Below the pieces are notes generated by a model that saw only the letters and a program-made list of their open reading frames with translations, was not told where the DNA came from and did no database searches. The translations under genes were made by a program, and so were the position numbers. Of a DNA stretch of 64,000 bases, positions 41,766 through 64,000 are shown piece after piece. Position 1 is the stretch's first letter, and each line of letters opens with the position of its first letter. This DNA is from Candidatus Binatia bacterium (GTDB lineage Bacteria; Desulfobacterota; Binatia; HRBIN30), in contig JBBRSP010000006.1 of assembly GCA_038245295.1 (NCBI GenBank), positions 160,001-224,000 of the forward strand, written 5' to 3'.

Positions 41766-42792
41766 ATACCAAGCGGCAGCCAAGAGCACCGATCAGTTCC
41801 CGAAAACGAAAGCGATCAAGGGGGCGAACAGCTCGCTTCAAAAGGCCGAACTGGTGCCACTCCTCGGCTTGACTGGCGAGATCGGTGCGTTGCTTTCCGA
41901 GTACAAGAAACTGCTTCGAGATGGTCCCATTCATCTGCGGTTTTCTGATCGTCTCAAAGAGGAACTCGGCGACATCCTTTGGTATGTGGCGACTGTAGCG
42001 ACAAAGTTCGATCTGCCCCTGGAGGAGATCGCTCGTCTGAACCTAAAGAAAGTGGCCGACCGATGGTCAAAGCCTCGACGCCGTGAGCCGTTGGACACAT
42101 CCTACCCGCCCAACGAACGGCTGCCGCGAAGGTTTACGTACCGGTTCACCTACGAACATCGGAAGGACCTAACGCGGGGCGTTGCTGTCGTCGATCACGA
42201 CGGCACGCGCATCGGCGACCTGCTTACGGACAACGCTCACGAGAACGATGGCTATCGATTTCACGACGTCATGCATTTCGCGTTCGTGGCGTTGCTTGGT
42301 TGGTCGCCTGTCGTACGCAAGCTTTTGCAGAGAAAACGCAAGAGCATCCGGAGCTCGGACGAAGTTGAGGACGGGGGGCGGGCAGGAGTCGTAGACGAAG
42401 CGATTGTGGCGATGGTGTTCGACTATATTCAGCATGACCTCGCTTCAACAACCGGAATGACCCGTATCGACTCCGATACTCTCCGCAGCATTCGCGCCCT
42501 TACCCGAGGGTTTGAAGTCAACGTGCGAACCGAAGCGGAGTGGGAAGAGGCGATCCTGAAGGGCATCGAGGTATGGCGGCAGATCGAGGCTCACGATGGC
42601 GGAACAGTGGTCGGAGACTTTACGCGTCGCTCCTTCACGTTCAGTCCGAAGGGTGGACGAAGTCGAAGGAGATCTGCTCACGTCGCGAACCCCGTGCCGC
42701 GCCGTCGTAGGGCAAAGGAGCCCCGTTCAACTTCCACTTCGGTGGGTAGAACTGGGGTAGCGGATCGAGACTCGGCGAGAAGTTCTGTTTGA
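41752..42792 (+). CDS. MazG-like nucleotide pyrophosphohydrolase with second MazG-like domain
   Basis: LGLTGEIG..EYKK..RDG, EELGDILWY, NLKK; IGD.LTDN...DGYRFHDVMH, DEVEDGGRA. Confidence 0.88.
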   Translation: MRLREYQAAAKSTDQFPKTKAIKGANSSLQKAELVPLLGLTGEIGALLSEYKKLLRDGPIHLRFSDRLKEELGDILWYVATVATKFDLPLEEIARLNLKKVADRWSKPRRREPLDTSYPPNERLPRRFTYRFTYEHRKDLTRGVAVVDHDGTRIGDLLTDNAHENDGYRFHDVMHFAFVALLGWSPVVRKLLQRKRKSIRSSDEVEDGGRAGVVDEAIVAMVFDYIQHDLASTTGMTRIDSDTLRSIRALTRGFEVNVRTEAEWEEAILKGIEVWRQIEAHDGGTVVGDFTRRSFTFSPKGGRSRRRSAHVANPVPRRRRAKEPRSTSTSVGRTGVADRDSARSSV

Positions 42793-43696
42793 TGCGTGTT
42801 CGGCCCGAAATGCCGACGCATTCGGGATGCGCCACACGGGCATATTTGCTCACCTCGCAAAAGAGATTCTGGTGATCAATTAGTTGTAAGGGGCGAATAC
42901 CCCCCAGCTTGTCAAACTGGAGGCCCAGCCGATCAAATTCGACTTCGGCGATCGAAGCGACGTAGCCGATTATTTCGCTCTCGGCCATTCCGGAAGTGTT
43001 GCTGAAGCACTTCACAATTCCGTCGAGCGCACCAGGTCCTGGAACTACGAAATCCATTTCGGAAAAATCGGTTAGTTCGCTGTAGTTGACGTCAATCGCA
43101 TACTGGAACGCGAGAAATGCACCCAGCGATGGGTAGCTGCGGAGGATTGCAAAAACCTCCTCAAGAGACTTAGCCCTACCGACTCGACTTGGAGTACCGT
43201 CGCGCATCATTCGTTCAAGAAGCTGAAGATGATTGCGATGTTTCCGAGGACTGCCGAACGGAGGCGACGGCATGATGTACGCAGCAGAGTAAAGACGCTG
43301 ACCCCGCGCATAGGCGGCGTCTAGGATCCGACCATATCTCTCCTCGTCGAAGCCGTACCACGCCGGAAGTTCTCCGAGTTGGTTGATCAGGAGCTCCCAA
43401 GTCCCGATGCGGTTAAAGAATTTGAAAAGAAGAATTCGAAAGAAGACGTCATCCGCATGCTGAGACCCTTCGTAGATCACATGCCGAATCAGATACTGAC
43501 TTACCCGATCCGATGCGCGGTAGGCATTTGTGAACCGGTGCGAAGCAATGATCGGATCGCTGCTCCACGGCAGCGACGCACCCTCAACGCGACGCATGAA
43601 GACTGCTTGTCGCTCGGCCGCAAAGCGCCAATAGGTATCAAAGACAGGCGTAGCTTCGACCGCCCGCCTGTAGGTTGCCTGAAGCAATCGTCCCAA
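42641..43696 (-). CDS. aGPT-Pplase1 / 5-hmdU DNA kinase family protein
   Basis: YWRFAAERQ, WSSDPI...RFTNAYRASDRVSQYLI, YSAAYIM, FLAFQYAID.NYS, GPGALDG, QNLFCEVSKY. TTG start after GGAGGAGG. Confidence 0.85.
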   Translation of the reverse strand: MGRLLQATYRRAVEATPVFDTYWRFAAERQAVFMRRVEGASLPWSSDPIIASHRFTNAYRASDRVSQYLIRHVIYEGSQHADDVFFRILLFKFFNRIGTWELLINQLGELPAWYGFDEERYGRILDAAYARGQRLYSAAYIMPSPPFGSPRKHRNHLQLLERMMRDGTPSRVGRAKSLEEVFAILRSYPSLGAFLAFQYAIDVNYSELTDFSEMDFVVPGPGALDGIVKCFSNTSGMAESEIIGYVASIAEVEFDRLGLQFDKLGGIRPLQLIDHQNLFCEVSKYARVAHPECVGISGRTRIKQNFSPSLDPLPQFYPPKWKLNGAPLPYDGAARGSRREQISFDFVHPSD

Positions 43697-43859
43697 CCGA
43701 ACACCCTCCTCCGTCCCCGACGAGCGAAGCAAGGATATCCGCAGATGGCTTGGAGGTCCACCGCAAGACGTGGTGTTTTTGAGCTTCGCAGCAAAAGGTG
43801 CGAAGCGATCTGACGCGACGAAAGAACGAACCCGATCGGAGGGTCCGTTTTGTTTCGCG

Positions 43860-44385
43860 TCATTGCGCCTGGAATTTGACGAGGTCCGTTGCGCTTGTGC
43901 GTCGTTGCCGAGACACATGGCAGCCTTCAGCGCTTTCCAGAATTGACCCGGGCCTGCTCGTCAAAAGTGACCCACCAAAATATCGCGACCAACCCTTCCA
44001 GAGACCATCGAACGCCGCCTTGATGTTCGATACCGCAGTGCTCGGACGCGTCAAGCGCCCGTCGATCAGCGTGCCATATTGCAGCGTAGTTTCGGGCGCT
44101 TGACCCATCCTGCGCGCCGCGGCCTGAGTCTTTAGGCGGCTTGGCTCGTAGTGTTCGGATTTCGGCAAAAATGAAGCGAACGATTGGCGCGCGCCAATTG
44201 TTCGCAGGTGGGTCAATTCTGACGAGCGAAGGTGGGTCAATTCCGGCGAGCGCTGAAGTACAGTAGCTGCACCAGCGGCCGAGTCGGCGATAAAGCTGCG
44301 TGGCTCGATTTCGTGAACGACGAGGCATCCTACGCGATGTATTTCTTTGAGATCGCCGGGTTCGCGACGACTCGCCTGCCCACTC
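43860..44385 (-). pseudogene. Degenerate copy of the 3' end of the PD-(D/E)XK gene at 49850-50656, split by a MITE
   Basis: CAGTAGCTGCACCAGCGGCCG occurs at 44261 and 49923 (YRR.GRWCSYC), with further similarity on both sides of the MITE. Confidence 0.7.
43925..44258. mobile_element. Non-autonomous IS21-like element
   Basis: About 50-bp imperfect terminal inverted repeats, CTTCAGCGCT..AATTGACCC..GCTCGTCA.AA.TGACCCACC, each with two internal TGACCC sites; no transposase. Confidence 0.72.
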
Positions 44386-53186: not shown

Positions 53187-56100
53187 TTGGGAAGGGGGTC
53201 ACCAGTGGATCTCAGCAACCCGCCCGCATCGAGTTCCGCGGCCGTACGGTGGGCAGCACTTTTCCCACTGCGGGCTCTCATGGCTCTGATTCGGCGAGTG
53301 GTACGGCTAGCGGGGCGTCCCGTCTTACTCCTTCTGTTCAACGCTGCTTTCCTCCCCGATGTTGAATCAGCTGCAGCCAGTACGATAGCTGGCCAGATTC
53401 GCTATTTCGGAAGCGGACTGCCTGTCAGCGGTGTGACCTTGCAACTGCTTGGCTCAAATATAGCGTTCGTGCAGACCGACGGGAACGGCAAATACGCATT
53501 TACCAACGTGGGTCCCGGCGACTGGCGTGTAGAGCCACAGAAATTTGGGGACGCACACGGCGCCCTGACGGCTCTAGATGCAGTTTGGGCGCTACAAGCT
53601 GTCGTCGGTCTTCGAACCATTGACTCCTACAATCGAGTTGCTTGTGACACTGACGGAACCGGCTTTCTGAGCGCAGTCGATGCAGTGTTCATCCTTCAGT
53701 ACAAGGTCGGCCTGATCAATATGTTGCCTTCGACTGAGACCTGTGGGTCGGAGTGGGCCTTTGACCCTGTGCCTTTTCCAGTCACCAATCAGCAGATCGA
53801 CCGTCCGCAAGCAATGCCAGCGGGGTGCCGCCATGGCGACATTGCTTATCGCCCTCTGGTCGAGGACGTGGACAATCAAGATTTTCTTGCAATACTCGTA
53901 GGCGACTGCAACGGAAGCTGGCAAGGCGTTCCTGCCACGCCAACGCTAACGGTAAGTGCCTCGCCTTCTCCTACTCCTACGTTCGGTCCCGTATGTTTGA
54001 CTTCCACCACCGTCGCGTTCTTTGACCCTATTCAAATGGGCGGGGACTCCATCAGTAGCAACCGTATTGAAGACGGCCTCGCTGCCGCCGCAAAGATAAC
54101 ACGCGGCGTCCTCATTCAAGGGTACTACGGACAACACACTGCGCCGCGCGAAGCTCGGCTGCGCGGGTTTGAGGTTGCGGCAAATGCCTCTCTGAATGGC
54201 ACAGAAAATGATGCTACGGAGCTTGGGCTACTCGCCCAAGACACAAATACTGGAGTCGTCCAGTTTCCGATGGTAGGTGGATCAAACGCCATCACGGATC
54301 AACACCTTAGCGAATCATATATCGGAACCCAACTCGCAACGTTCCGCCGGTTAATTGCCGCAAATACATTGGTGGGCATGTCTGAACGCGCAAGCACAAT
54401 GCTCGACACGACCCATCTTTCGTTCTTCGGTGCGACAGCTACTACGTCACCGGATGTTCTTGTTGCATCGATTCTTCCACAGATCTCGGGTGTAATAAGC
54501 CCTGTAGCTGGTCGGGATGCAGTTTTCAGCACCATTAACCAACTGCGACAGGCTTATCCGACAAAACCTCAGTACTATCTAGTCGGTTGGTCTACAACCG
54601 GCAGCTCTGTGACGGAACAATCGTCCTTTGTACGGCTCGTGCTAGCAGCCCAGTCGGAACTCAAGAGCCAAGGTAATCTGGTTGATATTTGGTGGTACAA
54701 CAACGAGGATGAACAGTGGCTGACCGCATACAGCAGGATTCTCGGTGGTTTCGGATTTGAATTTGAGAGCGATTTCTCGACGAAAGACCCATCTCTTTTT
54801 TCGAGCGCATGCTTACAAACTGCTCCGTTCAGCCCCCCGACCGTTACGCCGATTATGTCACCCTTACGAACGACTACCCAGGCAGCGCCGCAGACAACGT
54901 CTGGCCCATCAACCTCGACACCGATTCTGACTGCTACCGGCGTGTTTACACATAACATCATGGGGCCGACACCGTCAGCCACTCCCAGTCCTACCTCCAT
55001 CCCCACACCGCCAGATCTCACTTGGACTTCTCGGGGTGACGGATTGGCAGGCGGACAGGTTGAGACCAGTGTCATGTGGGGAGACAATCTCTACGCATTC
55101 GGGCTTGGTTCTCCAACCAGCCTTTATATCTTGAATACGGTCAGTAACGTTTGGCGCGAAGGGACTCCCACGCTCCAACAGGTGAACACCGGCAGCGCGG
55201 CAGCCTGGAATGGGGAGATTTTCGTTTTGTCGGGGTACGGCGAGCAACGCCTCCAGGTTTACACTGCAGCTACCGGACGTTGGCGCCTGGCCGCTCAACT
55301 GCCTGCCAGCCATCTTGGATACCCCGGGACGATGCTTATAGCCTTTGGTGCCAAGGTCTATGCGTTCGGAGGCATCCTTACGGATCAACTCAGCATCTAC
55401 GATATCGCGACCGACAGTTGGAGTGCCGGGCACGCAATGCCGATGGCTCGCAGCTTGGCTGTCACCGCGGTGCTCCGCGACAAGCTGTACCTAGTTGGTG
55501 GTCAAACGTCCTTCGGGTTGTCTAGCCAAGTCGTCGTCTATGATCCTGCTTCGGAGGGCTACACCGTAGCGGATAACTCGACTGGAGATTGGACAACGCT
55601 CGACGGGCTTGTCGTCACCCGGCGCACTGCTTCGATAGGCGTAGTGGCAGACGATCAGATTTTTGTACTTGGTGGCCTCGAATTCTCTCAAGGGTTCGGG
55701 CAGGCGACTGCAATGGTCGAGTCTTATGATCCGAGCGCTCCTCCTTGGACTCGCTGGCGACGTCATGCTCCGTTACTCAGAAGCCGCGCTCATCTCGCAG
55801 GGGGTTCGATCGGGAACAAACTCTATGTCGCGGCGGGACAGGATCTGGCGAGCGATATATCCTCCACAGAGGAAGGAACGCTCATTTACGTCCCGACCGC
55901 AACACCAACACCGCTCCCTTCTCAAACACCAACACCCACACCCACAGTCTTCTATTTAAATCTCATCGTAACGGATACGTATCTAGTAAATGTCGCGACT
56001 GGAAAACGAGTGGACAGTCCACTCTTGGGACAACAGGTTCGCCCTTGCGTCGAATGGTTCGCCGAAGGGCCAAGTAGCTCGTCTATCGATCACGACGTCG

Positions 56101-58184
56101 CCACCTGGTATGATAGCGTGCCTAACGAAGTGCCCGCTGCTCGGGTATCGGATCAAGGTGGCAATTACAATAGCTATTGTCGAGGCGATGGGTTCGTCGT
56201 CACCGCGGGCTTCCACACCGCATCTGTCGATATCGACCCTCGCAACGAGGTTCCCGAACCCGCGGACCAAGACAATGTCGGCTCGATCAGTTGGTTGAGT
56301 TGGACCGGTCCGAGCCCGACACCGACGATACCGTTACCGGTGACGCCCTATAACCTTGTCGTGGATGAGGTTTGGGTAGAGGACCTCGCCGGAGCTCGAG
56401 TGAGTTCGCCCGGAGTCGGCGACACGATCCGGGTTGCTGCACGATGGCACGTGGAAGGATCGGGAGTGGCAAGCTTCACTATCCGAGCCTCCGTAAGTGG
56501 CCACATCCTCGATGACGTAACCAACTACGTCGCGGCTGCAAACCAGTCTTTTACAATGAGAACATCGCTCACGCACGTGATTTTAACCGACGGACCAATC
56601 ACTGCGAGTTGGGAGCTTGATCCGCAGAACGCCCGCAATGAACCGAACGAAGACGACAATTCACGACAGTTTACCTGGATTGCACGGGACGATGGGCCTG
56701 CCGATATTGCTGTCGCCCGCGTGATCGTTAGCGATGCGGCATCACCTGACGCTAGCTTGAATACTTCCAACAGTCTAGGCCCAGAGGGACTACTAGCAGA
56801 GCGAGTCTCAGGTGACCTCTCGAACAGCTCCGCGGCATCTTCACCTGTTAGAGTTACGCCGCTCCTCAGTGACTCGGTGGTATTAGATACTGCCTTGACG
56901 GCGGTGCGACTGCCCCGAGGGGGGACAATCACACTGACAGCGTATCTGAGACCGACAGGCACACCTGAACTCAATTGCGGGACGCAAACGATTTCCACCG
57001 ACCAAGTCACCACGGGAACCGTGTATTTGAGCGTCGTCTGTGACACAACCTTTGCAAATCCAAATGTCTCCTACCTCCCATTGGTCAAAGCGACCGTTTC
57101 CAACTTCACCGACATCGACCCAACGAACAACGAGACGGCTGGAGATAAACTCATAACACCCCAGTCGCGACCAGGAGGAAACGTACGATTCAGCTCCTCG
57201 TTCCTGCCTCTAAAAGATGTCACGCTCTATACGTTGGCTGGCGTGCAGATTGGCGGTCCGCGCACGGCGCTTGCCGACGGTCGAGTGTTTACTACGATCG
57301 ATAATGGCAGTTATCTTGTTGGCGTCACAACAATGATCGGTACCCCACTGTATGACAACTCCGCGACTGGGAGTCCAGCATATTTTCTTGATGTCGCGCC
57401 AACGGGCAACACTGCAGTCTCGTTCGACGACGCTACCCCGCAAAGTTGTCCACTCGGGAGGTGCGCCAAACTGACCGTGGGAGGTGAAGCCACGGTCATA
57501 AGCGGCCTCGAAGGTATGAAGCGTCGCGTCTTATGGGAAGCGGCCTATGCCATGAACGGATGCCAAAACAACGGTGGAAACCCGAGAACGGGTTGCGTCA
57601 CTGCGACAACGCCGTACAAGGACAACATCGTCGGCAACACAACATATGCGACGTTTTCTTATCTTGCAAGCGATGAGACCGCCGCGAAGGCTGCTTTTTC
57701 TGATGACGCATTGCACGGAACATGTTACAATCATAGCTATCCGCCCATCTCTACATATGACTGTTCAGTCCAACACGATCCCGTGACCGAAGTGCTTCAA
57801 TATTCTAGGCATCCAGGACGAGATTCGGAGGGGGTCTACTCACGTGGTGGTCAGTGTAAAAAATTTGTCGCGCTGGTTCTATATCGGAGCGGGATTCGCC
57901 ATACAGTAGCCGGATCGTTCAGTCGTCTACCTGAGGATGCAAAGATTAGTAACGATCTCGTGATGTTTCCTGTTGTTGCTATCCCACATCCAGGAGATAT
58001 CTTACGCCGCCCGAATGGGCACGCCTTGATTGTTGCGGCATCTATTGCGGGGTTGGGCCTGATAGCCGTCGATTCAAATTATTCCGGGGGCGATGGCCAC
58101 GAACGCATCGCCGTTCATTTAATGGGGCCCGCGAGCTTGGTCGAATATCACAACTTGAACTGCGTATACACAGGAGCATGCTGA
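53187..58184 (+). CDS. Large secreted multidomain protein: dockerin-like, GH17-like, Kelch, CARDB, C-terminal CHAP-like (start uncertain)
   Basis: TDGNGKYAF; CDTDG.G.LSAVDA; Kelch repeats Y..GG...YD; DP.NEV.E..ED.N; GQCKKFV...PGDI...GHALIV. Confidence 0.8.
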   Translation: MGRGSPVDLSNPPASSSAAVRWAALFPLRALMALIRRVVRLAGRPVLLLLFNAAFLPDVESAAASTIAGQIRYFGSGLPVSGVTLQLLGSNIAFVQTDGNGKYAFTNVGPGDWRVEPQKFGDAHGALTALDAVWALQAVVGLRTIDSYNRVACDTDGTGFLSAVDAVFILQYKVGLINMLPSTETCGSEWAFDPVPFPVTNQQIDRPQAMPAGCRHGDIAYRPLVEDVDNQDFLAILVGDCNGSWQGVPATPTLTVSASPSPTPTFGPVCLTSTTVAFFDPIQMGGDSISSNRIEDGLAAAAKITRGVLIQGYYGQHTAPREARLRGFEVAANASLNGTENDATELGLLAQDTNTGVVQFPMVGGSNAITDQHLSESYIGTQLATFRRLIAANTLVGMSERASTMLDTTHLSFFGATATTSPDVLVASILPQISGVISPVAGRDAVFSTINQLRQAYPTKPQYYLVGWSTTGSSVTEQSSFVRLVLAAQSELKSQGNLVDIWWYNNEDEQWLTAYSRILGGFGFEFESDFSTKDPSLFSSACLQTAPFSPPTVTPIMSPLRTTTQAAPQTTSGPSTSTPILTATGVFTHNIMGPTPSATPSPTSIPTPPDLTWTSRGDGLAGGQVETSVMWGDNLYAFGLGSPTSLYILNTVSNVWREGTPTLQQVNTGSAAAWNGEIFVLSGYGEQRLQVYTAATGRWRLAAQLPASHLGYPGTMLIAFGAKVYAFGGILTDQLSIYDIATDSWSAGHAMPMARSLAVTAVLRDKLYLVGGQTSFGLSSQVVVYDPASEGYTVADNSTGDWTTLDGLVVTRRTASIGVVADDQIFVLGGLEFSQGFGQATAMVESYDPSAPPWTRWRRHAPLLRSRAHLAGGSIGNKLYVAAGQDLASDISSTEEGTLIYVPTATPTPLPSQTPTPTPTVFYLNLIVTDTYLVNVATGKRVDSPLLGQQVRPCVEWFAEGPSSSSIDHDVATWYDSVPNEVPAARVSDQGGNYNSYCRGDGFVVTAGFHTASVDIDPRNEVPEPADQDNVGSISWLSWTGPSPTPTIPLPVTPYNLVVDEVWVEDLAGARVSSPGVGDTIRVAARWHVEGSGVASFTIRASVSGHILDDVTNYVAAANQSFTMRTSLTHVILTDGPITASWELDPQNARNEPNEDDNSRQFTWIARDDGPADIAVARVIVSDAASPDASLNTSNSLGPEGLLAERVSGDLSNSSAASSPVRVTPLLSDSVVLDTALTAVRLPRGGTITLTAYLRPTGTPELNCGTQTISTDQVTTGTVYLSVVCDTTFANPNVSYLPLVKATVSNFTDIDPTNNETAGDKLITPQSRPGGNVRFSSSFLPLKDVTLYTLAGVQIGGPRTALADGRVFTTIDNGSYLVGVTTMIGTPLYDNSATGSPAYFLDVAPTGNTAVSFDDATPQSCPLGRCAKLTVGGEATVISGLEGMKRRVLWEAAYAMNGCQNNGGNPRTGCVTATTPYKDNIVGNTTYATFSYLASDETAAKAAFSDDALHGTCYNHSYPPISTYDCSVQHDPVTEVLQYSRHPGRDSEGVYSRGGQCKKFVALVLYRSGIRHTVAGSFSRLPEDAKISNDLVMFPVVAIPHPGDILRRPNGHALIVAASIAGLGLIAVDSNYSGGDGHERIAVHLMGPASLVEYHNLNCVYTGAC

Positions 58185-58262: not shown

Positions 58263-59060
58263 ATGGAGCATTCATGTGTGTTACGCGCGCTGTCGCTGCG
58301 CTCGAGTGTTGTCGTATTCGTAGTCGGCGTCGCTATCGGCGTTGTGGCCGTCAGGGCGGAGGCGCTGTTGACATTTGGCTCCAGGGATTCCGGCTCGATG
58401 TCTGCTGTCACCGTTCCGGTTGCTCCTGACCTGAGCCCGGAATATTTCTCAACGACGGTCGTCCCGCACACTCAAGTAGAGTTTGCTCGTGAAAAGCTGC
58501 CCGCGGGAATTGAGTGGGCAATAACAGATGACGCGGATGTGAGGCATGGCGACACGACGGAGGGCATGACTCTGGTTGGAGCGATACGGATGAAAGTAGC
58601 TGGTGCGGACTTGAGGGACCTCGTCAACAGAGCCATCGATCCTGGAAAGCAAGACTACGACCCAAACTTATTGTATTCGTTTTGTACACTTGGGCCCAGG
58701 GTGATTACCGTGATGCAACCAAAGGCGGGATCGATAGGCTTGGAGGACTATTTGAGGAGAGAACGCGATGCGTCAAGCAGCGACTTCGAGAATGCTGCCG
58801 ATAGCGGCATGATGACATCCATAAACGGGAAGGATGTGTTGTTCTATCGGAGCGGAGACGAATCGGGCAATGAATTGTTGATCGCCTTGATGAATATTGG
58901 CTCATCCATCGTTAAAGTGATTCAAACCAAAGGCGATTGCGAGCGAGTGAAGGAATTTGACCGAGTCCCGCTGTCAATAACGCGCAACCTGTCACGTGTC
59001 TCGGATTATGCATTTTATCGCGTCGTTAAGTCTATTGCATTTCTCAACGTTGTCAAATGA
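58263..59060 (+). CDS. Exported hypothetical protein
   Basis: N-terminal hydrophobic segment; follows the large gene. Confidence 0.6.
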   Translation: MEHSCVLRALSLRSSVVVFVVGVAIGVVAVRAEALLTFGSRDSGSMSAVTVPVAPDLSPEYFSTTVVPHTQVEFAREKLPAGIEWAITDDADVRHGDTTEGMTLVGAIRMKVAGADLRDLVNRAIDPGKQDYDPNLLYSFCTLGPRVITVMQPKAGSIGLEDYLRRERDASSSDFENAADSGMMTSINGKDVLFYRSGDESGNELLIALMNIGSSIVKVIQTKGDCERVKEFDRVPLSITRNLSRVSDYAFYRVVKSIAFLNVVK

Positions 59061-59188
59061 ATGATTATGTGTCGTCTGGCGAGCTGTGAAGGCAGTGTCC
59101 CCGGTTCGGAGCATTTGCGATATTTACGATATATGTCTCTCGGTACGACGGAGCCCGTCAATGAAAGTGAGACACTCCCGTTCATAAT

Positions 59189-60310
59189 TTAGTGTATCGC
59201 CGCCTCTGGCGGCGATTGGTGTTTCAGCCGCGCGCTGGCGCGATTTGAAGCAGCGCCGTCGACCTCAACTGAAGGCGGATCGGTGCTCACGGGGCTTCCC
59301 AGAGCGCCGCCTTTGTCGGCAGCGCCGCCTTGGATCGCGGTTGGTGGGTTGATGTACACCGCGGTCGGCAATGTTGGTGACAGGGGTTTGTGTCCTTTAA
59401 AGCGTTGCGGGTTTCGCTCAAAAGCTTGGTCGAGTGCAACCGTTCGGATGGCGATGAGCCGTTGCGCATCGTCGTAGTGCACGACCTGCGGCGTCAGAAA
59501 GCCGAGACCGCTGTGATGGTGTTTGGTGTTGTACCAGGAAAAAAATTCACGCCCGAAAGCCATGGCCTGCTGGTTGGTAGCAAAGCGGTCGGGAAACTCG
59601 GGCCGGTACTTGGTGGTTTTGAACAACGCTTCGCTGAACGGGTTGTCGTTGCTGGTGTAAGGGCGACTGTGGGTCTTGGTGATGCCCAGATCCCCCATCA
59701 TCTGCGCCACGCCCTTGGATGTCATGCTCGGGCCGCGGTCGCTGTGCACAGTGAGCTGCCCGGGCTCGACGCCTTGCTTGTGAGCGCTCTCGGAGATCAG
59801 GCGCTGCGCCAGTGCCGAGCATTCGCGCTCGGCCACCAACCAGCCGACCACGTAGCGGCTGAAGATGTCCATGAGCACGTAGAGATAGAAGTAGCTCCAC
59901 TTGGCCGGCCCCATCAGCTTGGTGATGTCCCACGACCACACCTGATTGGGTGCGGTAGCAATCAGCTCGGGCTTGGCCACCGGCGGATGCGTCAGTTGGC
60001 GGCGGCGTTCGCGAACTTCCTGGTGGCGAGCGAGCAGGCGATACATCGTGCGCGCCGAACACAGATATTGCCCTTCATCGAGCAACGTGGCGTGAATCTC
60101 CGCCGGTGCGTCGTTCACGAAGCGCTCGCAGTGCAGGATGTCGAGTATAACTTGTTCCTCGCTCCTGCTGAGCGCCAACGGTGGGCGCGGTCGCAGCGCT
60201 GGTGGGAGCTTGGGCTGGTTTCGACGATAGAACGTCGGACGTGCCACGCCCAGGGCGGTGCACGCCGGACGCACCCCGACCCGATTGGCCAGATCAATGG
60301 TGGCTATCAT
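59189..60310 (-). CDS. IS3 transposase OrfB (DDE)
   Basis: WSWDIT, DIFSRYVVGW, HSDRG, DNPFSEALFKT. Confidence 0.93.
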   Translation of the reverse strand: MIATIDLANRVGVRPACTALGVARPTFYRRNQPKLPPALRPRPPLALSRSEEQVILDILHCERFVNDAPAEIHATLLDEGQYLCSARTMYRLLARHQEVRERRRQLTHPPVAKPELIATAPNQVWSWDITKLMGPAKWSYFYLYVLMDIFSRYVVGWLVAERECSALAQRLISESAHKQGVEPGQLTVHSDRGPSMTSKGVAQMMGDLGITKTHSRPYTSNDNPFSEALFKTTKYRPEFPDRFATNQQAMAFGREFFSWYNTKHHHSGLGFLTPQVVHYDDAQRLIAIRTVALDQAFERNPQRFKGHKPLSPTLPTAVYINPPTAIQGGAADKGGALGSPVSTDPPSVEVDGAASNRASARLKHQSPPEAAIH

Positions 60311-60780
60311 GAGGCGCTCCCGTCGCTCGGGTCCGTTGCCAGGAGCGCCGCCACTTTTTTTTGGACGTCGATGATGATCTCGGCTTTCTCCAGCTTGGCC
60401 TGGAGACGCGCGTTCTCACGTTCGAGTTGGGCGACGCGAGCGGCAAGCGGATTGGCAGTGGGCTTGCGGCCACGCCGTTTGGGCTCAAGGCTCTGCGCTT
60501 GTTGCTCGCGCCAGTTGGACAGGTGCGAGGAGTACAAGCCCTCGCGGCGCAACAGCGCTCCGATCGCTCCCGGTGACGTGCAGCGCTCTGCTTCACGCAC
60601 GATGCGAAGTTTGTAGTCGGCGCTGAATCGCCGGCGTGCCGCTTTGGCGCTGCTCACCTCCGGGTCCCGTCGCGCCGCCGCAGCAGGAGCTGACTGCGCT
60701 CCGGTCGCTATCGCTCCCTTCGCTCCGTCAGCCCCTGCTGCGGCCCCGTTGGTAGGTCTCCCGTCCGTACTGCCATGCAT
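60307..60780 (-). CDS. IS3 transposase OrfA
   Basis: RRRFSADYKLRIV, LLRREGLYSSHL, QKK. Confidence 0.9.
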   Translation of the reverse strand: MHGSTDGRPTNGAAAGADGAKGAIATGAQSAPAAAARRDPEVSSAKAARRRFSADYKLRIVREAERCTSPGAIGALLRREGLYSSHLSNWREQQAQSLEPKRRGRKPTANPLAARVAQLERENARLQAKLEKAEIIIDVQKKVAALLATDPSDGSAS

Positions 60781-60973
60781 TTGCTTGATTCGATTCTCCG
60801 CCCTCTACAGTAATTTCCCCAAGGGGAAATGTCTCACTGTCATTGGCAGAGAGGGCGATCTTCTCGCGAGCTCCTTTGACATCAGCGCCAAACGGCGTCG
60901 CTTCGAGGACCCGCCGCACGGTGATTGATTTCGGCCGAAGGAAGCCGGAAGACGGATCCCTAGATGCGTTGGG

Positions 60974-62089
60974 TTGCTGCCGCCGAGCAAGACGGTCATG
61001 CTAAGATCAGTGATGAGCAAGACAGACGATCGGTTCCTCCAACAAGCCCCCAGTTTCATCGATCAGGCCCTCGCGGCTCTCGGCGTAGGAGCCATGGTCG
61101 ACCTGCCGCCCATCGACAACTTGCCAAGTCCCGTCAACCCAGTCTGTGTTCGCGACCTTCTGCAGGTGTCCGATGAAGAGAAGGCTGATCTTGCAAGGAT
61201 GTTCTATGGCAGACAAGGCGTGGCGGCGTTCAGCTTGGCGAAACCCAGTTATGCTCGCAAGCACCCCCTGATAGAACTCGCTAGTCAGCTATCGGATGCG
61301 TTGCCGCTAATGTATCCAATCGCTCATCCTGGTGAGTCGGATAGAGGAGCTCTGACGCATTTTGGCAGCCCCGATGGCACCCTGAAAGTCTTTCAGCGAT
61401 CCGATCAAAAAACCTCGCTTCAGTCCGAAGAGTTGCACTTGCACCAGGATGGAGTCGGATTGGCGGGTGCTGTGGTAGCGGTCGGCCTGTATTGTGAAAG
61501 TGGGCCGCTTTGGGGTGGGCTGACGTGCTTTCAAAATGCGTTGCGTCTGGTCGTCGAACTCGCGCGGATCGATCTATCGGCCTTTGCATCCCTCTTTCTT
61601 CCCAGTGCGCTGACGATCCTTAGAACGGGAGGTAGGGCTCTTCAGGTCACAGGCCCCGTGCTTTACTTGAACACGATGGGGCAGCCGCAGTTATTCCTGA
61701 GAGCCGAAGGTGGAGAGTACGAGATGCGCTGGTTAAGCGACCCTGCAATATCACGGGCGAGGGACTTTCTGAGATATTATCTGCGACCTTTGGCGCCTTC
61801 ATCTAACTTTGTGCAGCTATCAGTGGAGGGCCAAGGCTGCTTTATTCGCAATGCGGTGGTACTGCATGGACGAACTCGGTTCGTGGAGGGCGATTCGCGA
61901 AAACGCATTTTGGCGAGAAAGTGGTTTGCGCTCACGGCGGCTGAAGCATTGATGAAGCAGGTTCCTGGTCTGCGAATCCTTGACGCGTATGCGGTCTTAC
62001 GCCCCGATCTCTTCGGGAAGGAGGTCTTGAGCGGCCACTGGAGATACGATGAAGCCGCCTTAGCGAACGTGGCACAAAAGTCCGAGTGA
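60974..62089 (+). CDS. TauD/clavaminate-synthase-like Fe(II)/2-oxoglutarate dioxygenase (start uncertain)
   Basis: LHQDG (HxD), LYC....GG.T, N..VLHGRT.F, R.L.R. Confidence 0.78.
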   Translation: MLPPSKTVMLRSVMSKTDDRFLQQAPSFIDQALAALGVGAMVDLPPIDNLPSPVNPVCVRDLLQVSDEEKADLARMFYGRQGVAAFSLAKPSYARKHPLIELASQLSDALPLMYPIAHPGESDRGALTHFGSPDGTLKVFQRSDQKTSLQSEELHLHQDGVGLAGAVVAVGLYCESGPLWGGLTCFQNALRLVVELARIDLSAFASLFLPSALTILRTGGRALQVTGPVLYLNTMGQPQLFLRAEGGEYEMRWLSDPAISRARDFLRYYLRPLAPSSNFVQLSVEGQGCFIRNAVVLHGRTRFVEGDSRKRILARKWFALTAAEALMKQVPGLRILDAYAVLRPDLFGKEVLSGHWRYDEAALANVAQKSE

Positions 62090-64000
62090 AGTGTCGAAAG
62101 AACGGGATGCCACGGCTGGGCTCAAGAGATCGGCTTCTTATCTTTTGCGGTGCCGGGATTTCTGTCGACGGACCTTCCCACCTGCCGAAGGCGGAAGAGC
62201 TCTCGCATCGGGTACTCGACATGCTTGTTGACCCCGGTGATCGAGTGGTGGACGCGCAAAGCCTTGAGCACCTTCGCTCGGCTGCCGACACGCTAAGGCT
62301 TGAGCTTGTTCTGGAACTGCTTGCTGATCACATGGATCCGCGGGTTCTGGTCGAGGTCTTCGCAATGTTACGATCGGCGCAGCCAAACCCAAATCATTTC
62401 GCGCTTGCCGCTGGGCAGTTTGATATTCTTACGACCAACCAAGATCTCTTGATCGAAGCTGCTGCTGCCACCCTGGATCTTCCATCGAACGTGCTGCATC
62501 TCCATGGTCGATGCGATCGACCAACAACCATAATCACTTTGATCAGCCAATATGTTGCGGGCCTTCCAGAACCGCTGTCGCGTCAATTCAAACAGAAACT
62601 CGAGGAGAGGCATGTTCTTGTTCTCGGCTACAGCGGACGCGATCGCGATATCATGCCATTGATTGAGCACTCATCAGCCAAGCACATCGAGTGGATACTA
62701 CATCCTGGCGCACCTGAATCGCCAGAACTGCGACGCCTTCGAAGCCGCCTGGGTGACCGCATAACCGTATGCTCGGAGTGGGCGTGTATGAGCCTCATGC
62801 GTCTGTTGACGTTGCGTCAACGCGCCATGGTGCTCCGCGGGGTCAAAAAGCTTACGATGGAACCGGCCCTCCACGATCAGGTTCAGGTTTCAACACAATT
62901 TGCCTCAATCGGACGTCTGGAGCGAAATCTCGGGCTTGCCGCTGTCTTGCGGCATGCCTCATTTTACCGTGATGCTGAGCGAATATATGCGGCACTCGGC
63001 GGCACAGAAGATAACGCCCCCGCGTCGCTGCGCCTTGCAATCGCGTCGTCGCGCCTGTTTCAGCAGCACTTCGACGACGCTGTTTCGGGTTTTGACAGGG
63101 TGCTATCTACGCCCGGCGCTGGCTTTCATGAGCGCGCGGACGCACTACTTGGGAAAGTTGAGGCATTCCGCAATACCTCGCAGGGTGTTGCTGCGGTTCG
63201 CTCGTTGCGCGACTTGTTGCGGATTGCCGCCAAGATGCCGCGGGGCCGAAAGCGTGCTCGGTGTTTTGGGCGAGCAGCCAGTCACGCTGGCGGAATCGCC
63301 AGGGTCGACGGTAACCTTGCCGAAGCGGCCGTACAGTATTCCTCCGCAGTCGCCTGGTTTCGTCGCAGTAGAGATCTCGACGAGCAGCTAGAGAATAAAT
63401 GCTGGCGAGGAGACGTTCTGAGGATGCGTGGACATTATCGACGCGCCCATGCCATGGTTTCAGACGTTCTCGAAGATTCGATGCTTTACGTCCGCCACCG
63501 CGTGCGTGCGTGGGCGTACCTCGTGAGCGCAGACATAGACTGTGGACGCGGCCAGATAGTGGAATCTGCTCGCTGGCTAGCACTTGCGGCCCAAGAGTTC
63601 AGTTCCTCGGAGAACCCTCAAGGCCTCGTGTGGACCGATCTCGTTCGAGCAACGTTATTGCGGACGAGGGGGGATCTCAGTGAGGCAGAGGGAGCACTCG
63701 ACGATGCCGAGCGACGGAGTCGCGATGGCGCGGCTCCTCGGCATCTCGCGCAGGCGCGGTTGCATCTTGAGCGGGCCGAAGTGGCCCGAGGCAAGCATCA
63801 GGGGGACATGATCGGCCACCATCTTCGACAGCTGACGGACCTTCTCCACTCGTCAAAACACTTCTCGACAAGACCTGAGTATCTCTACCTTCAAGCAGCG
63901 CTCGTGAACGCAGAATTCGAGCGTGATCGAGGTCGCGATATGGCAAACGACCTCTCTTCTCTTGGCGTGAAATTCGAAAGGCTCGGACTCAAGGGGTTAT
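62086..64000 (+). CDS. SIR2-like domain plus TPR-like helical repeats, runs off the right edge
   Basis: Not in the ORF track. Manual translation is open to the window end: IFCGAGISV, TTNQD, LHLHG, VLGYSGRD. GTGA overlap with the TauD stop; alternative ATG at 62107. Confidence 0.85.
   Translation, partial: MKCRKNGMPRLGSRDRLLIFCGAGISVDGPSHLPKAEELSHRVLDMLVDPGDRVVDAQSLEHLRSAADTLRLELVLELLADHMDPRVLVEVFAMLRSAQPNPNHFALAAGQFDILTTNQDLLIEAAAATLDLPSNVLHLHGRCDRPTTIITLISQYVAGLPEPLSRQFKQKLEERHVLVLGYSGRDRDIMPLIEHSSAKHIEWILHPGAPESPELRRLRSRLGDRITVCSEWACMSLMRLLTLRQRAMVLRGVKKLTMEPALHDQVQVSTQFASIGRLERNLGLAAVLRHASFYRDAERIYAALGGTEDNAPASLRLAIASSRLFQQHFDDAVSGFDRVLSTPGAGFHERADALLGKVEAFRNTSQGVAAVRSLRDLLRIAAKMPRGRKRARCFGRAASHAGGIARVDGNLAEAAVQYSSAVAWFRRSRDLDEQLENKCWRGDVLRMRGHYRRAHAMVSDVLEDSMLYVRHRVRAWAYLVSADIDCGRGQIVESARWLALAAQEFSSSENPQGLVWTDLVRATLLRTRGDLSEAEGALDDAERRSRDGAAPRHLAQARLHLERAEVARGKHQGDMIGHHLRQLTDLLHSSKHFSTRPEYLYLQAALVNAEFERDRGRDMANDLSSLGVKFERLGLKGL

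What the first reader, a model, noticed from the sequence alone, without database searches (positions are those of the whole stretch)
60974..64000. TauD-like dioxygenase translationally coupled to a SIR2-TPR protein
The SIR2 gene is missing from the ORF track. SIR2 NADases are common defence effectors (Thoeris, DSR, SIR2-HerA) and TPRs are common sensors. I do not know a described system pairing one with an Fe/2OG oxygenase. The oxygenase might make or destroy a signal or modify a nucleotide (inference). Further genes may lie beyond the window.
Basis: partly seen in the sequence, partly recalled or inferred. Interest (0 to 1): 0.7.

Follow-up and report, generated by a model that had tools for sequence, protein, structure and literature searches.

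The report
Oxygenase paired with SIR2-TPR NADase
A rare iron/2-oxoglutarate oxygenase gene and a gene for an NAD-cleaving SIR2 enzyme fused to a TPR sensor travel together as a mobile two-gene unit that looks like an undescribed bacterial anti-virus system, though its function has never been tested.

Summary
Both genes are real. The TauD-like oxygenase lies at 60974-62089. The SIR2-TPR gene starts at 62086 or 62107 and ends 149 bases beyond the window, giving 687 or 680 aa. The oxygenase keeps its HxD...H iron triad. The SIR2 domain keeps GAGIS, TTNQD and HLHG.

The pair sits between an IS3 element and a serine recombinase gene. Neither gene was found full-length in 400 other genomes of the phylum.

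The pairing recurs. DNA shows it in two metagenome loci, there in reversed gene order. Partner identities covary, but the window's SIR2-TPR comes from a divergent lineage.

Neighbours are often defence or mobility genes: pAgo, restriction enzymes, integrases and a Ppl-like gene.

More distant oxygenase relatives pair with other proteins: a methyltransferase-like TPR protein plus a Qng1-like glycosylase, EamA exporters, or NRPS genes.

My best reading is a new SIR2-based defence candidate whose oxygenase makes or removes a small-molecule cue (about 0.45). No model in PADLOC 2.0.0 or NCBIfam fits the pair, and no searched paper describes it. The mechanism is inferred.

The parts
59159..60845 (-). 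IS3-type insertion sequence forming the left flank; not part of the unit. It holds orfA at 60307-60780 and orfB at 59189-60310.
   Evidence: Pfam rve, rve_3 and HTH_Tnp_1. Terminal inverted repeats at 59159-59179 and 60825-60845. A 27-nt stretch at 60830-60856, overlapping the right-hand repeat arm, recurs on contig C74 of the same genome.
60974..62089 (+). TauD/CAS-like Fe(II)/2-oxoglutarate oxygenase. Length is 371 aa from TTG 60974, 363 aa from ATG 60998 (the source's gene call), or 358 aa from ATG 61013.
   Evidence: Pfam TauD at 26.9 bits. H149, D151, H290 and R303/R307 are invariant in 24 family members. AlphaFold model pLDDT 90.6. VIA-align Z 20.8 to TmpA and 18-19 to BBOX1, KDO1 and clavaminate synthase.
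61442..61450 (+). Codons of the HxD iron ligands, H149-Q-D151 in numbering of the 363-aa form. The third ligand, H290, is at 61865-61867.
62086..62089 (+). GTGA junction, where a candidate GTG start of the SIR2-TPR gene overlaps the TGA stop of the oxygenase gene. The alternative start is ATG 62107.
   Evidence: N-termini of homologues.
62086..62900 (+). SIR2_2 (NADase-type sirtuin-like) domain of the SIR2-TPR protein.
   Evidence: Pfam SIR2_2 at 40.1 bits. GAGIS at residues 22-26; TTNQD (N118), HLHG (H140) and GYSGRDRD are invariant in 28 sequences. A family profile aligns these motifs with PDB 9v0g_E (E 1.8e-9), the SPARSA Sir2 8in8 and KomC 8zsf.
62900..64000 (+). TPR-like helical-repeat region of the SIR2-TPR protein. 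It continues 149 nt past the window end to the stop at window coordinate 64149 (L003 4149).
   Evidence: Pfam TPR_MalT E 1e-7 and TPR_12 E 1.3e-3, both below cutoff. The family profile hits consensus TPR proteins, OGT, IFIT1 and the TPR sensor 6mfv. The full ORF is seen.

Best explanation
This is a horizontally mobile two-gene conflict module, most likely anti-phage.

The 680-687-aa protein is the effector and sensor. Its N-terminal SIR2_2 domain would destroy NAD+ once its TPR-like C-terminal part is switched on, as in other SIR2 defence proteins.

The TauD-like enzyme is an active Fe(II)/2-oxoglutarate oxygenase acting on a small polar molecule. It would work with the SIR2-TPR protein by making, or continuously removing, the ligand that gates the NADase.

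Shown here: both genes are intact with catalytic residues, the linkage recurs and co-varies, and the unit is mobile and very patchy in distribution. Inferred: NADase activity, the defence role, that the oxygenase substrate is a small molecule, and the gating logic.
For: (1) Integrity. The HxD...H triad and 2OG-binding Arg candidates are invariant in 24 family members. GAGIS, TTNQD, HLHG and GYSGRDRD are conserved in 28 SIR2-TPR proteins and align with PDB SIR2 chains that include the NADase KomC and a Sir2 superfamily protein (8in8).

(2) Linkage. Of the 23 related loci fetched, tblastn finds a SIR2-TPR only in L006 and L007. These are the only two close relatives (54-57% identity) whose upstream side is on the contig. 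In both, the SIR2-TPR gene lies directly upstream on the same strand, so the order is reversed relative to the window. The 361 nt upstream of the pair in L007 are non-coding, and no flanking gene is shared.

(3) Contig-length matches put 6 of 12 close oxygenase clusters on the same contig as a SIR2-TPR cluster: 250005, 43652, 18718, 153128, 5447 and 4847 bases.

(4) Among the five non-window pairs, identities covary (oxygenase 56-82%, SIR2-TPR 47-68%). Over all 15 comparisons Spearman rho is 0.69.

(5) In a quick tree the three DNA-verified oxygenases fall in one 13-row clade (SH-aLRT 96) and span both of its halves.

(6) Patchiness. The oxygenase occurs in 1 of 401 genomes of the phylum, and that one is the window's own genome. 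No full-length SIR2-TPR was found in the other 400. Each gene is single-copy in its own genome.

(7) Setting. The window pair lies between an IS3 element and a serine recombinase, inside an island that also holds an integrase, a Ppl-like gene (PADLOC E 1.3e-30), a helicase-nuclease and a Cas4-like nuclease. The L006 pair lies between a class II pAgo gene (E 1.2e-47) and an integrase plus a helicase resembling a type IV restriction enzyme.

(8) The window's SIR2-TPR diverges more than its oxygenase from the five paired relatives: 30-33% against 54-62% identity.
Against: There is no functional data.

The oxygenase's structural neighbours are all small-molecule hydroxylases of ordinary metabolism or antibiotic biosynthesis. 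Relatives at 32-41% identity sit beside EamA exporters with a LysR regulator, or in an NRPS region of an Agrobacterium plasmid.

Neither protein matches a PADLOC system model; there are only weak hits to the SIR2 domain.

The closest relatives of the window's own SIR2-TPR (P0016-P0022, 42-59% identity, on contigs up to 122 kb) share no contig length with any listed oxygenase. The SIR2-TPR family has 45 and 36 clusters in the two searches against 12 close oxygenase clusters. The SIR2-TPR protein therefore probably also works without this oxygenase.

Three of the six pairs rest on contig length alone, not on DNA.

No fused oxygenase-SIR2 protein exists among the best 150 of 343 hits in 1.84 billion representatives.
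Confidence: 0.45

Rival explanations
1. A metabolic or natural-product module rather than immunity. The oxygenase hydroxylates an amino-acid-like or quaternary-amine metabolite. The SIR2-TPR protein is a regulator or an NAD-dependent deacylase/ADP-ribosyl transferase tied to that pathway. The unit merely rides on mobile elements.
For: The best fold matches are TmpA, BBOX1, lysine, arginine and asparagine hydroxylases and clavaminate synthase (Z 17-21). Family members lie next to EamA exporters and LysR (L016, L018, L021, L025, L026), next to a radical SAM enzyme (L008) and in an NRPS/desaturase region of plasmid pAtG3_79b.
Against: The close clade that pairs with SIR2-TPR shows no transporter, regulator or further pathway enzyme in the window, L006 or L007. 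The SIR2 domain belongs to the SIR2_2 type, and its motifs align with SIR2 chains that include the NADase KomC. Its neighbours are pAgo, restriction, integrase and IS genes. It was found in 1 of 401 genomes of the phylum.
Confidence: 0.25
2. The SIR2-TPR protein is a self-sufficient single-gene defence protein in the manner of DSR proteins, sensing a phage protein with its repeats. The oxygenase is an independent second effector or accessory that shares the operon but does not control the NADase.
For: By the contig-length proxy, many SIR2-TPR family members have no oxygenase of this family on their contig. SIR2_2-plus-TPR architectures are common in the ESM Atlas. The window's SIR2-TPR comes from a different lineage than those of the other pairs, as if partners were interchangeable.
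Against: Identities covary in five pairs, and the pairing persists through a change of gene order and of SIR2-TPR lineage. Gene spacing is tight: overlap or 17 nt in the window, about 10 nt in L006.
Confidence: 0.15
3. The oxygenase acts on protein rather than on a small molecule. It would bind the TPR region and hydroxylate either the SIR2-TPR protein or a phage protein held by it, or act as a bound inhibitor (antitoxin-like) that is released on infection.
For: Tight gene linkage and possible translational coupling. TPR repeats are typical protein- and peptide-binding modules (established knowledge). The oxygenase has a conserved N-terminal helical extension, H8-27.
Against: All structural neighbours with Z above 16 act on small molecules. 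No interaction test could be run.
Confidence: 0.1

Closest known systems
DSR2 / DSR1 (defence-associated sirtuins)
   Same: An N-terminal SIR2 NADase domain followed by a long helical-repeat sensor region in one polypeptide. (The architecture of DSR2 is taken from the abstracts of PMC11850899 and PMC11263360 as shown in the search listing.)
   Different: No sequence match beyond the SIR2 motifs. PADLOC gives no DSR hit. This protein is about 685 aa. It is encoded next to a conserved oxygenase partner, which DSR proteins, as single-gene systems, lack (the single-gene nature is recalled).
Kongming (KomABC) and Thoeris: enzyme-made small molecule activates a SIR2 NADase
   Same: The proposed logic is the same: a co-encoded enzyme produces the ligand for a SIR2 effector. 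The KomC SIR2 domain aligns with this family (PDB 8zsf, E 1.8e-6).
   Different: No TIR, SLOG, deaminase or HAM1-type partner was found. The partner here is an Fe/2OG oxygenase, a class not found in any defence signalling pathway in my searches. The mechanisms of Kongming and Thoeris are recalled, not read here.
SPARSA (short pAgo with SIR2-APAZ)
   Same: The best PADLOC hits of the SIR2 domain are to pAgo-associated SIR2 models, at E 1.5e-4 to 3e-3. In L006 a class II pAgo gene lies 1.6 kb upstream.
   Different: No APAZ domain is present, and there is no pAgo next to the pair in the window or in L007. The two genes between the pAgo and the pair in L006 are not shared with other loci.
TauD/clavaminate-synthase-like small-molecule hydroxylases (TmpA, BBOX1, KDO1, VioC, AsnO)
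   Same: Same fold (Z 17-21 over about 250 residues) and the same HxD...H iron triad.
   Different: Only 13-19% identity. The family is a small, sharply separate branch: 60 representatives at E<=1e-30 among 1.84 billion. Its substrate is unknown.

Membership tests
TauD/TfdA family (Pfam PF02668) / clavaminate-synthase-like Fe(II)/2OG oxygenases | Whole-protein score at or above Pfam's gathering cutoff (27 bits) | tested here: inconclusive
   The window protein scores 26.9 bits, 0.1 below the cutoff. Most full-length relatives pass at 31.7-44.1 bits, but two full-length ones fall below (L008 19.8 bits, L021 24.2 bits). The precomputed Pfam label PF02668 is attached to 13 of 14 clusters.
TauD/TfdA family (Pfam PF02668) / clavaminate-synthase-like Fe(II)/2OG oxygenases | Double-stranded beta-helix fold of the TauD/CAS type | tested here: met
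   Model pLDDT 90.6. Foldseek E 3e-12 to BBOX1. VIA-align Z 20.8, rmsd 3.1 over 251 residues to TmpA 6npb_A.
TauD/TfdA family (Pfam PF02668) / clavaminate-synthase-like Fe(II)/2OG oxygenases | HxD/E...H iron-binding triad and a basic residue for the 2OG C5 carboxylate | tested here: met
   H149, D151, H290, R303 and R307 are invariant in 24 sequences. Which Arg binds 2OG was not determined.
SIR2_2 (Pfam PF13289) NADase-type SIR2 domains | Score above the cutoff, plus the GAGxS, TxN(x)D and HG catalytic motifs | tested here: met
   40.1 bits against a cutoff of 24.5. GAGIS at 22-26; N118, D120, H140 and G141 invariant. The motifs align with 9v0g_E and KomC.
DSR1/DSR2 | Homology to the DSR proteins over the sensor region, or a hit to DSR models | tested here: not met
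   PADLOC lists only pAgo-associated SIR2 models and one generic SIR2 model, all weak. No DSR chain appears among the 60 best of 105 PDB hits.
Thoeris | A TIR-domain ThsB gene and a SLOG (or other signal-binding) domain on ThsA | tested here: not met
   No TIR or SLOG domain was found in either protein or in flanking ORFs. ThsA 8wc0 matches only at E 5.8e-3 over 34 residues.
SIR2-HerA | Adjacent HerA-type ATPase gene | tested here: not met
   The neighbours are an IS3 transposase and a serine recombinase.
Avs / STAND NTPase sensors with SIR2 effector | A central STAND NTPase (P-loop) domain between the effector and the TPR region | tested here: not met
   No NTPase family at E<=0.1 in Pfam. 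SIR2 motifs end near residue 190, and TPR-like matches run from about 270.
SPARSA (short pAgo + SIR2-APAZ) | An APAZ domain on the SIR2 protein and an adjacent short pAgo gene | tested here: not met
   PADLOC matches cover only 25-98 residues of the SIR2 core. No pAgo lies beside the pair in the window or L007. The pAgo in L006 lies 1.6 kb upstream, separated from the pair by two unrelated genes.

The most novel reading that the evidence does not exclude
An Fe(II)/2-oxoglutarate oxygenase is the signal-making or signal-erasing enzyme of a bacterial immune pathway that fires a SIR2 NADase. This would add oxidative small-molecule chemistry, and possibly sensing of 2-oxoglutarate, iron or oxygen status, to immune signalling.

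The same rare oxygenase family would also be a shared core that evolution has plugged into two different 'enzyme-head plus TPR' partners. One is SIR2-TPR. The other is a methyltransferase-like TPR protein accompanied by a Qng1/MutY-like glycosylase. In both, a partner is a family known for cleaving N-glycosidic bonds of nucleotides.
Probability: 0.2. Interest if true: 0.85.

Novelty: new variant of a known kind. Interest (0 to 1): 0.62.

Why it matters
SIR2 NADases are among the commonest effectors of bacterial immunity, and what switches them on is the key question for each system. A conserved oxygenase partner would be a new kind of upstream component.

If the oxygenase makes or destroys a ligand, that ligand would be a new immune messenger, and one that can be found: compare LC-MS profiles of reactions with wild-type and H149A/D151A enzyme.

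The same oxygenase family also sits in a separate three-gene cassette with a methyltransferase-like TPR protein and a Qng1-like glycosylase. That gives a second, independent handle on its substrate.

Even if the unit proves not to be defensive, the oxygenase family is a distinct, unstudied branch of a much-used biocatalyst superfamily.

Tried and rejected
- Complex prediction (oxygenase with the TPR part of the SIR2-TPR protein) was not available. No interaction test was made.
- Neither family was found in viral contigs.
- In plasmids there was no SIR2-TPR and one oxygenase relative at 41% identity, in an NRPS region.
- No full-length SIR2-TPR was found among 401 genomes of a class-level sample that included G401. 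Two genomes matched at E<=1e-20, both only over the N-terminal SIR2 part. Only 2 candidates per genome were scored.
- A profile-profile comparison of SIR2-TPR with the 750-aa partner of the sister cassette gave probability 4%, so no homology is claimed.
- No fused oxygenase was found among the best 150 of 343 representative hits. One unrelated 1498-aa protein matched weakly in 8 short stretches.
- NCBIfam gave no hit for any of four proteins.
- The 265-aa ORF upstream of the IS (58263-59060) has no counterpart in any related locus. I rejected it as a third component.
- The three genes upstream of the pair in L006 are not shared with L007 or the window.
- Sequencing runs: no RNA holder is listed. 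The only holder is a DNA run that may be the source of this DNA.
- Earlier scan notes hold nothing similar by sequence or words.
- The careful tree search did not finish in the time allowed, so the quick tree is reported.
Full report
**What is in the sequence**

With open ends allowed, one search lists a 371-aa ORF at 60974..62089 (+) and an ORF from 62086 that runs off the window. I located the window on contig C6 of its genome and fetched 20 kb from there. The second ORF ends 149 nt beyond the window and encodes 687 aa.

The junction reads GAG TGA AGT..., so a GTG start overlaps the TGA stop (GTGA). An ATG 17 nt further on is an equally good or better start, judged from the N-termini of homologues. 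Tight linkage is a fact; translational coupling is an inference.

The source's own gene call for the second gene (594 aa, P0015) starts at M94. It would remove the GAGIS NAD-binding motif that homologues conserve, so I read it as a mis-called start.

**Identity of the two proteins**

- **Gene 1** scores 26.9 bits on Pfam TauD, against a cutoff of 27. Most full-length relatives pass at about 32-44 bits. An AlphaFold model built on a 24-sequence alignment has pLDDT 90.6. It matches the TauD/clavaminate-synthase-like fold: Foldseek E about 1e-12 to BBOX1, TmpA and GlaH. VIA-align gives Z 20.8 to TmpA, 18-19 to BBOX1, KDO1 and clavaminate synthase, and 17-18 to AsnO and VioC, at 13-19% identity. 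H149, D151, H290, R303 and R307 are invariant, so it looks like an active oxygenase. Every close structural neighbour acts on a small molecule.
- **Gene 2** has a SIR2_2 domain (40.1 bits, cutoff 24.5) and sub-threshold TPR matches. In 28 aligned family members TTNQD (N118), HLHG (H140), SQY and GYSGRDRD are invariant, and GAGIS is present in most. A family profile aligns these motifs with PDB 9v0g_E (E 1.8e-9), the SPARSA Sir2 protein 8in8 and the Kongming NADase KomC 8zsf. No NTPase, TIR, SLOG or APAZ domain is present.

**Rarity and mobility**

- The oxygenase family is tiny. A word-indexed search of 5.8 billion clusters returned 14. A profile search of 1.84 billion representatives returned 343 at E<=1e-3, 91 at <=1e-10 and 60 at <=1e-30, with no family member among the best 150 longer than 387 aa.
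- In 401 genomes of the window's phylum only the window's own genome has the oxygenase. None of the other 400 has a full-length SIR2-TPR; five matched only over the TPR part.
- Each gene is single-copy in its own genome.
- The pair lies between an IS3 element with inverted repeats at 59159-59179 and 60825-60845 and a large serine recombinase followed by an IstB-like ATPase.
- Further left in the window are an integrase, a primase-like gene, a Ppl-like ATPase (PADLOC E 1.3e-30), a 5-hmdU DNA kinase homologue, a DUF559-helicase, a Cas4-like nuclease and a TrwB-like coupling protein. Earlier notes of this scan had read parts of this island as defence candidates. I checked only the domain content.

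**Is the pairing conserved?**

I fetched 23 related loci, 2 from genomes and 21 from metagenomes.

- tblastn with the window's SIR2-TPR hits 2 of the 23, L006 and L007. In both the SIR2-TPR gene lies immediately upstream of the oxygenase gene on the same strand, so the order is reversed relative to the window.
- These two are the only close oxygenase relatives (54-57% identity) whose upstream side is on the contig. L015 and L023 (56% and 50% over partial matches) are cut by the contig start.
- No flanking gene is shared among the three loci, and the 361 nt upstream of the L007 pair are non-coding. The conserved unit is therefore two genes.
That is 6 of the 12 oxygenase clusters at 54-100% identity. 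The last three pairs rest on this proxy only.
- Among the five non-window pairs the identities covary (oxygenase 56-82%, SIR2-TPR 47-68%). The window is an outlier at 54-62% against 30-33%.
- In a quick maximum-likelihood tree of 50 family proteins of at least 300 aa, the three DNA-verified oxygenases lie in one 13-row clade (SH-aLRT 96) and span both of its halves. The careful search did not finish.

My reading is that the pairing is ancestral to that clade, and that the window carries a version in which the SIR2-TPR comes from a divergent lineage and the gene order is inverted.

**Evidence against a strict pairing**

The nearest relatives of the window's own SIR2-TPR (P0016-P0022, 42-59% identity) sit on contigs of up to 122 kb. 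None of those lengths matches any listed oxygenase contig. The SIR2-TPR family also has many more clusters than the paired oxygenase clade: 45 and 36, overlapping. The SIR2-TPR protein therefore probably also exists without this oxygenase. I could not fetch those contigs.

**What the rest of the oxygenase family does**

- Relatives at 38-45% identity sit in a different conserved cassette, seen in L004, L005, L009, L010, L011 and L014, and partly in L012 and L024. It comprises a protein of about 750 aa, the oxygenase and a protein of about 330 aa.
- The 330-aa protein has motifs ICHQxNWD, DPLxKKS and PAIDYHxxRLYLRTGRV, plus four C-terminal cysteines. Its model (pLDDT 85.1) matches the queuosine-5'-monophosphate glycosylase Qng1/DUF2419 (Foldseek E 8e-8, TM 0.60) and then MutY (E about 1e-3).
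- The 750-aa protein has no Pfam family. In three members it carries an N-terminal SIGGGDG...FEGDA pattern that I read as methyltransferase-like. The ESM Atlas points to class I methyltransferase and TPR clusters at scores of 0.81-0.86, which are leads only. It is not detectably homologous to SIR2-TPR (hhalign probability 4%).
- More distant relatives (32-35% identity) sit beside EamA exporters. One sits behind a radical SAM gene, and one at 41% identity lies in an NRPS/desaturase region of an Agrobacterium plasmid.
- The family is therefore a small-molecule oxygenase recruited into several contexts. In the two best-conserved contexts, the SIR2 domain and the Qng1-like protein belong to families known to cleave N-glycosidic bonds of nucleotides (established knowledge). 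In each, the large partner also carries TPR-like repeats.

**Neighbourhoods of the related loci**

- L006: a class II pAgo C-terminus (PADLOC E 1.2e-47) lies 1.6 kb upstream, and an integrase and a helicase resembling a type IV restriction enzyme lie downstream.
- L009: an integrase and a type IIG restriction-modification enzyme.
- L004: a type II methyltransferase.
- L010: HipA.
- L015: a CHAT protease-like gene.
- L023: AbiEii.
- L008: type IV secretion genes and an integrase.

These are the surroundings typical of defence islands and mobile elements. This is association, not proof.

**Mechanism**

- The best-supported reading is a mobile conflict module in which SIR2-TPR is an NAD+-consuming effector with a repeat sensor. 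The oxygenase would make or remove a small-molecule ligand that gates it. The logic parallels Thoeris and Kongming, whose mechanisms I recall rather than read here.
- Shown: intact active sites, recurrent and co-varying linkage, mobility, and defence-type neighbours.
- Inferred: NADase activity, the defence role, and the gating.
- I put the defence reading at about 0.45 overall, and any specific gating model lower.
- Rivals are a metabolic or natural-product role (0.25), an independent accessory to a self-sufficient DSR-like protein (0.15), and a protein-directed or antitoxin-like oxygenase bound to the TPR region (0.10).

**Novelty**

- PADLOC 2.0.0 has no model for either protein beyond weak SIR2-core hits. 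NCBIfam has none.
- Full-text searches for SIR2 + TauD + anti-phage (0 papers) and for SIR2 + dioxygenase + defense systems + phage (4 papers) found no description of such a pair. From the second search I read passages of one preprint, 10.1101/2025.01.08.631966, which does not concern this pair.
- Searches for SIR2/tetratricopeptide/NADase/phage defense (listing only), for 2-oxoglutarate/oxygenase/defense island/anti-phage (1 unrelated review) and for TauD/defense system/phage (17 papers, 15 listed, all unrelated by title and abstract) also found nothing.
- I file it as a new variant of a known kind: SIR2-effector immunity with a new partner class. It remains a candidate until tested.

Noticed in passing
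L004 5682-10115; L005 7986-12422; L009 708-5177; L010 1764-5560; L011 7857-12276; L014 7845-12330: A separate conserved three-gene cassette built around the same oxygenase family. It comprises an unannotated protein of about 750 aa (N-terminal methyltransferase-like motif in three members, helical repeats in the C-terminal part), the oxygenase, and a 330-aa protein with a Qng1/DUF2419-like, MutY-like fold and four C-terminal cysteines. It occurs in an Acidobacteriota MAG, an Actinomycetota MAG and soil metagenomes, with varying gene order. The combination of methyltransferase-like protein, oxygenase and glycosylase is unexplained.
   Followed up: partly
L006 1-1873: A class II prokaryotic Argonaute gene (C-terminal 123 aa visible, PADLOC E 1.2e-47) followed by two overlapping unknown genes (119 and 380 aa) lies directly upstream of the SIR2-TPR/oxygenase pair on the same strand. 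Whether these genes work with the pair or are only neighbours is open; they are absent from L007 and the window.
   Followed up: partly
window 62086-62365: The source's gene call for the SIR2-TPR protein (594 aa) starts at M94 and omits the conserved N-terminal GAGIS region. Three close homologues (P0017-P0019) are likewise called about 54 residues short.
   Followed up: partly
window 53187-58184: A 1665-aa ORF with Kelch beta-propeller repeats and a CarboxypepD_reg-like N-terminal domain, followed by a 265-aa ORF (58263-59060) that has a hydrophobic N-terminus, no family and no counterpart in related loci.
   Followed up: no
L003 7309-9639 (- strand; window coordinates 67309-69639, beyond the window): A 776-aa protein that combines SAM (sterile alpha motif), an adenylate/guanylate cyclase catalytic domain and an AAA_16 ATPase domain, just past the recombinase and the IstB remnant.
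   Followed up: no
window 42641-43918 (- strand): A strong match to the 5-hmdU DNA kinase helical domain (PF18723, E 5.9e-108), pointing to thymidine hypermodification genes in the same island.
   Followed up: no
L032 8962-10092 (Agrobacterium tumefaciens plasmid pAtG3_79b): The only plasmid-borne relative of the oxygenase (41% identity). It sits among an NRPS gene, a prephenate-dehydrogenase-like gene, a fatty acid desaturase and a homocitrate-synthase-like gene, which looks like a natural-product cluster.
   Followed up: no
L015 720-4313: Downstream of a partial close oxygenase relative lie a 607-aa TPR protein with no SIR2 match, on the opposite strand, and a CHAT protease-like gene.
   Followed up: no
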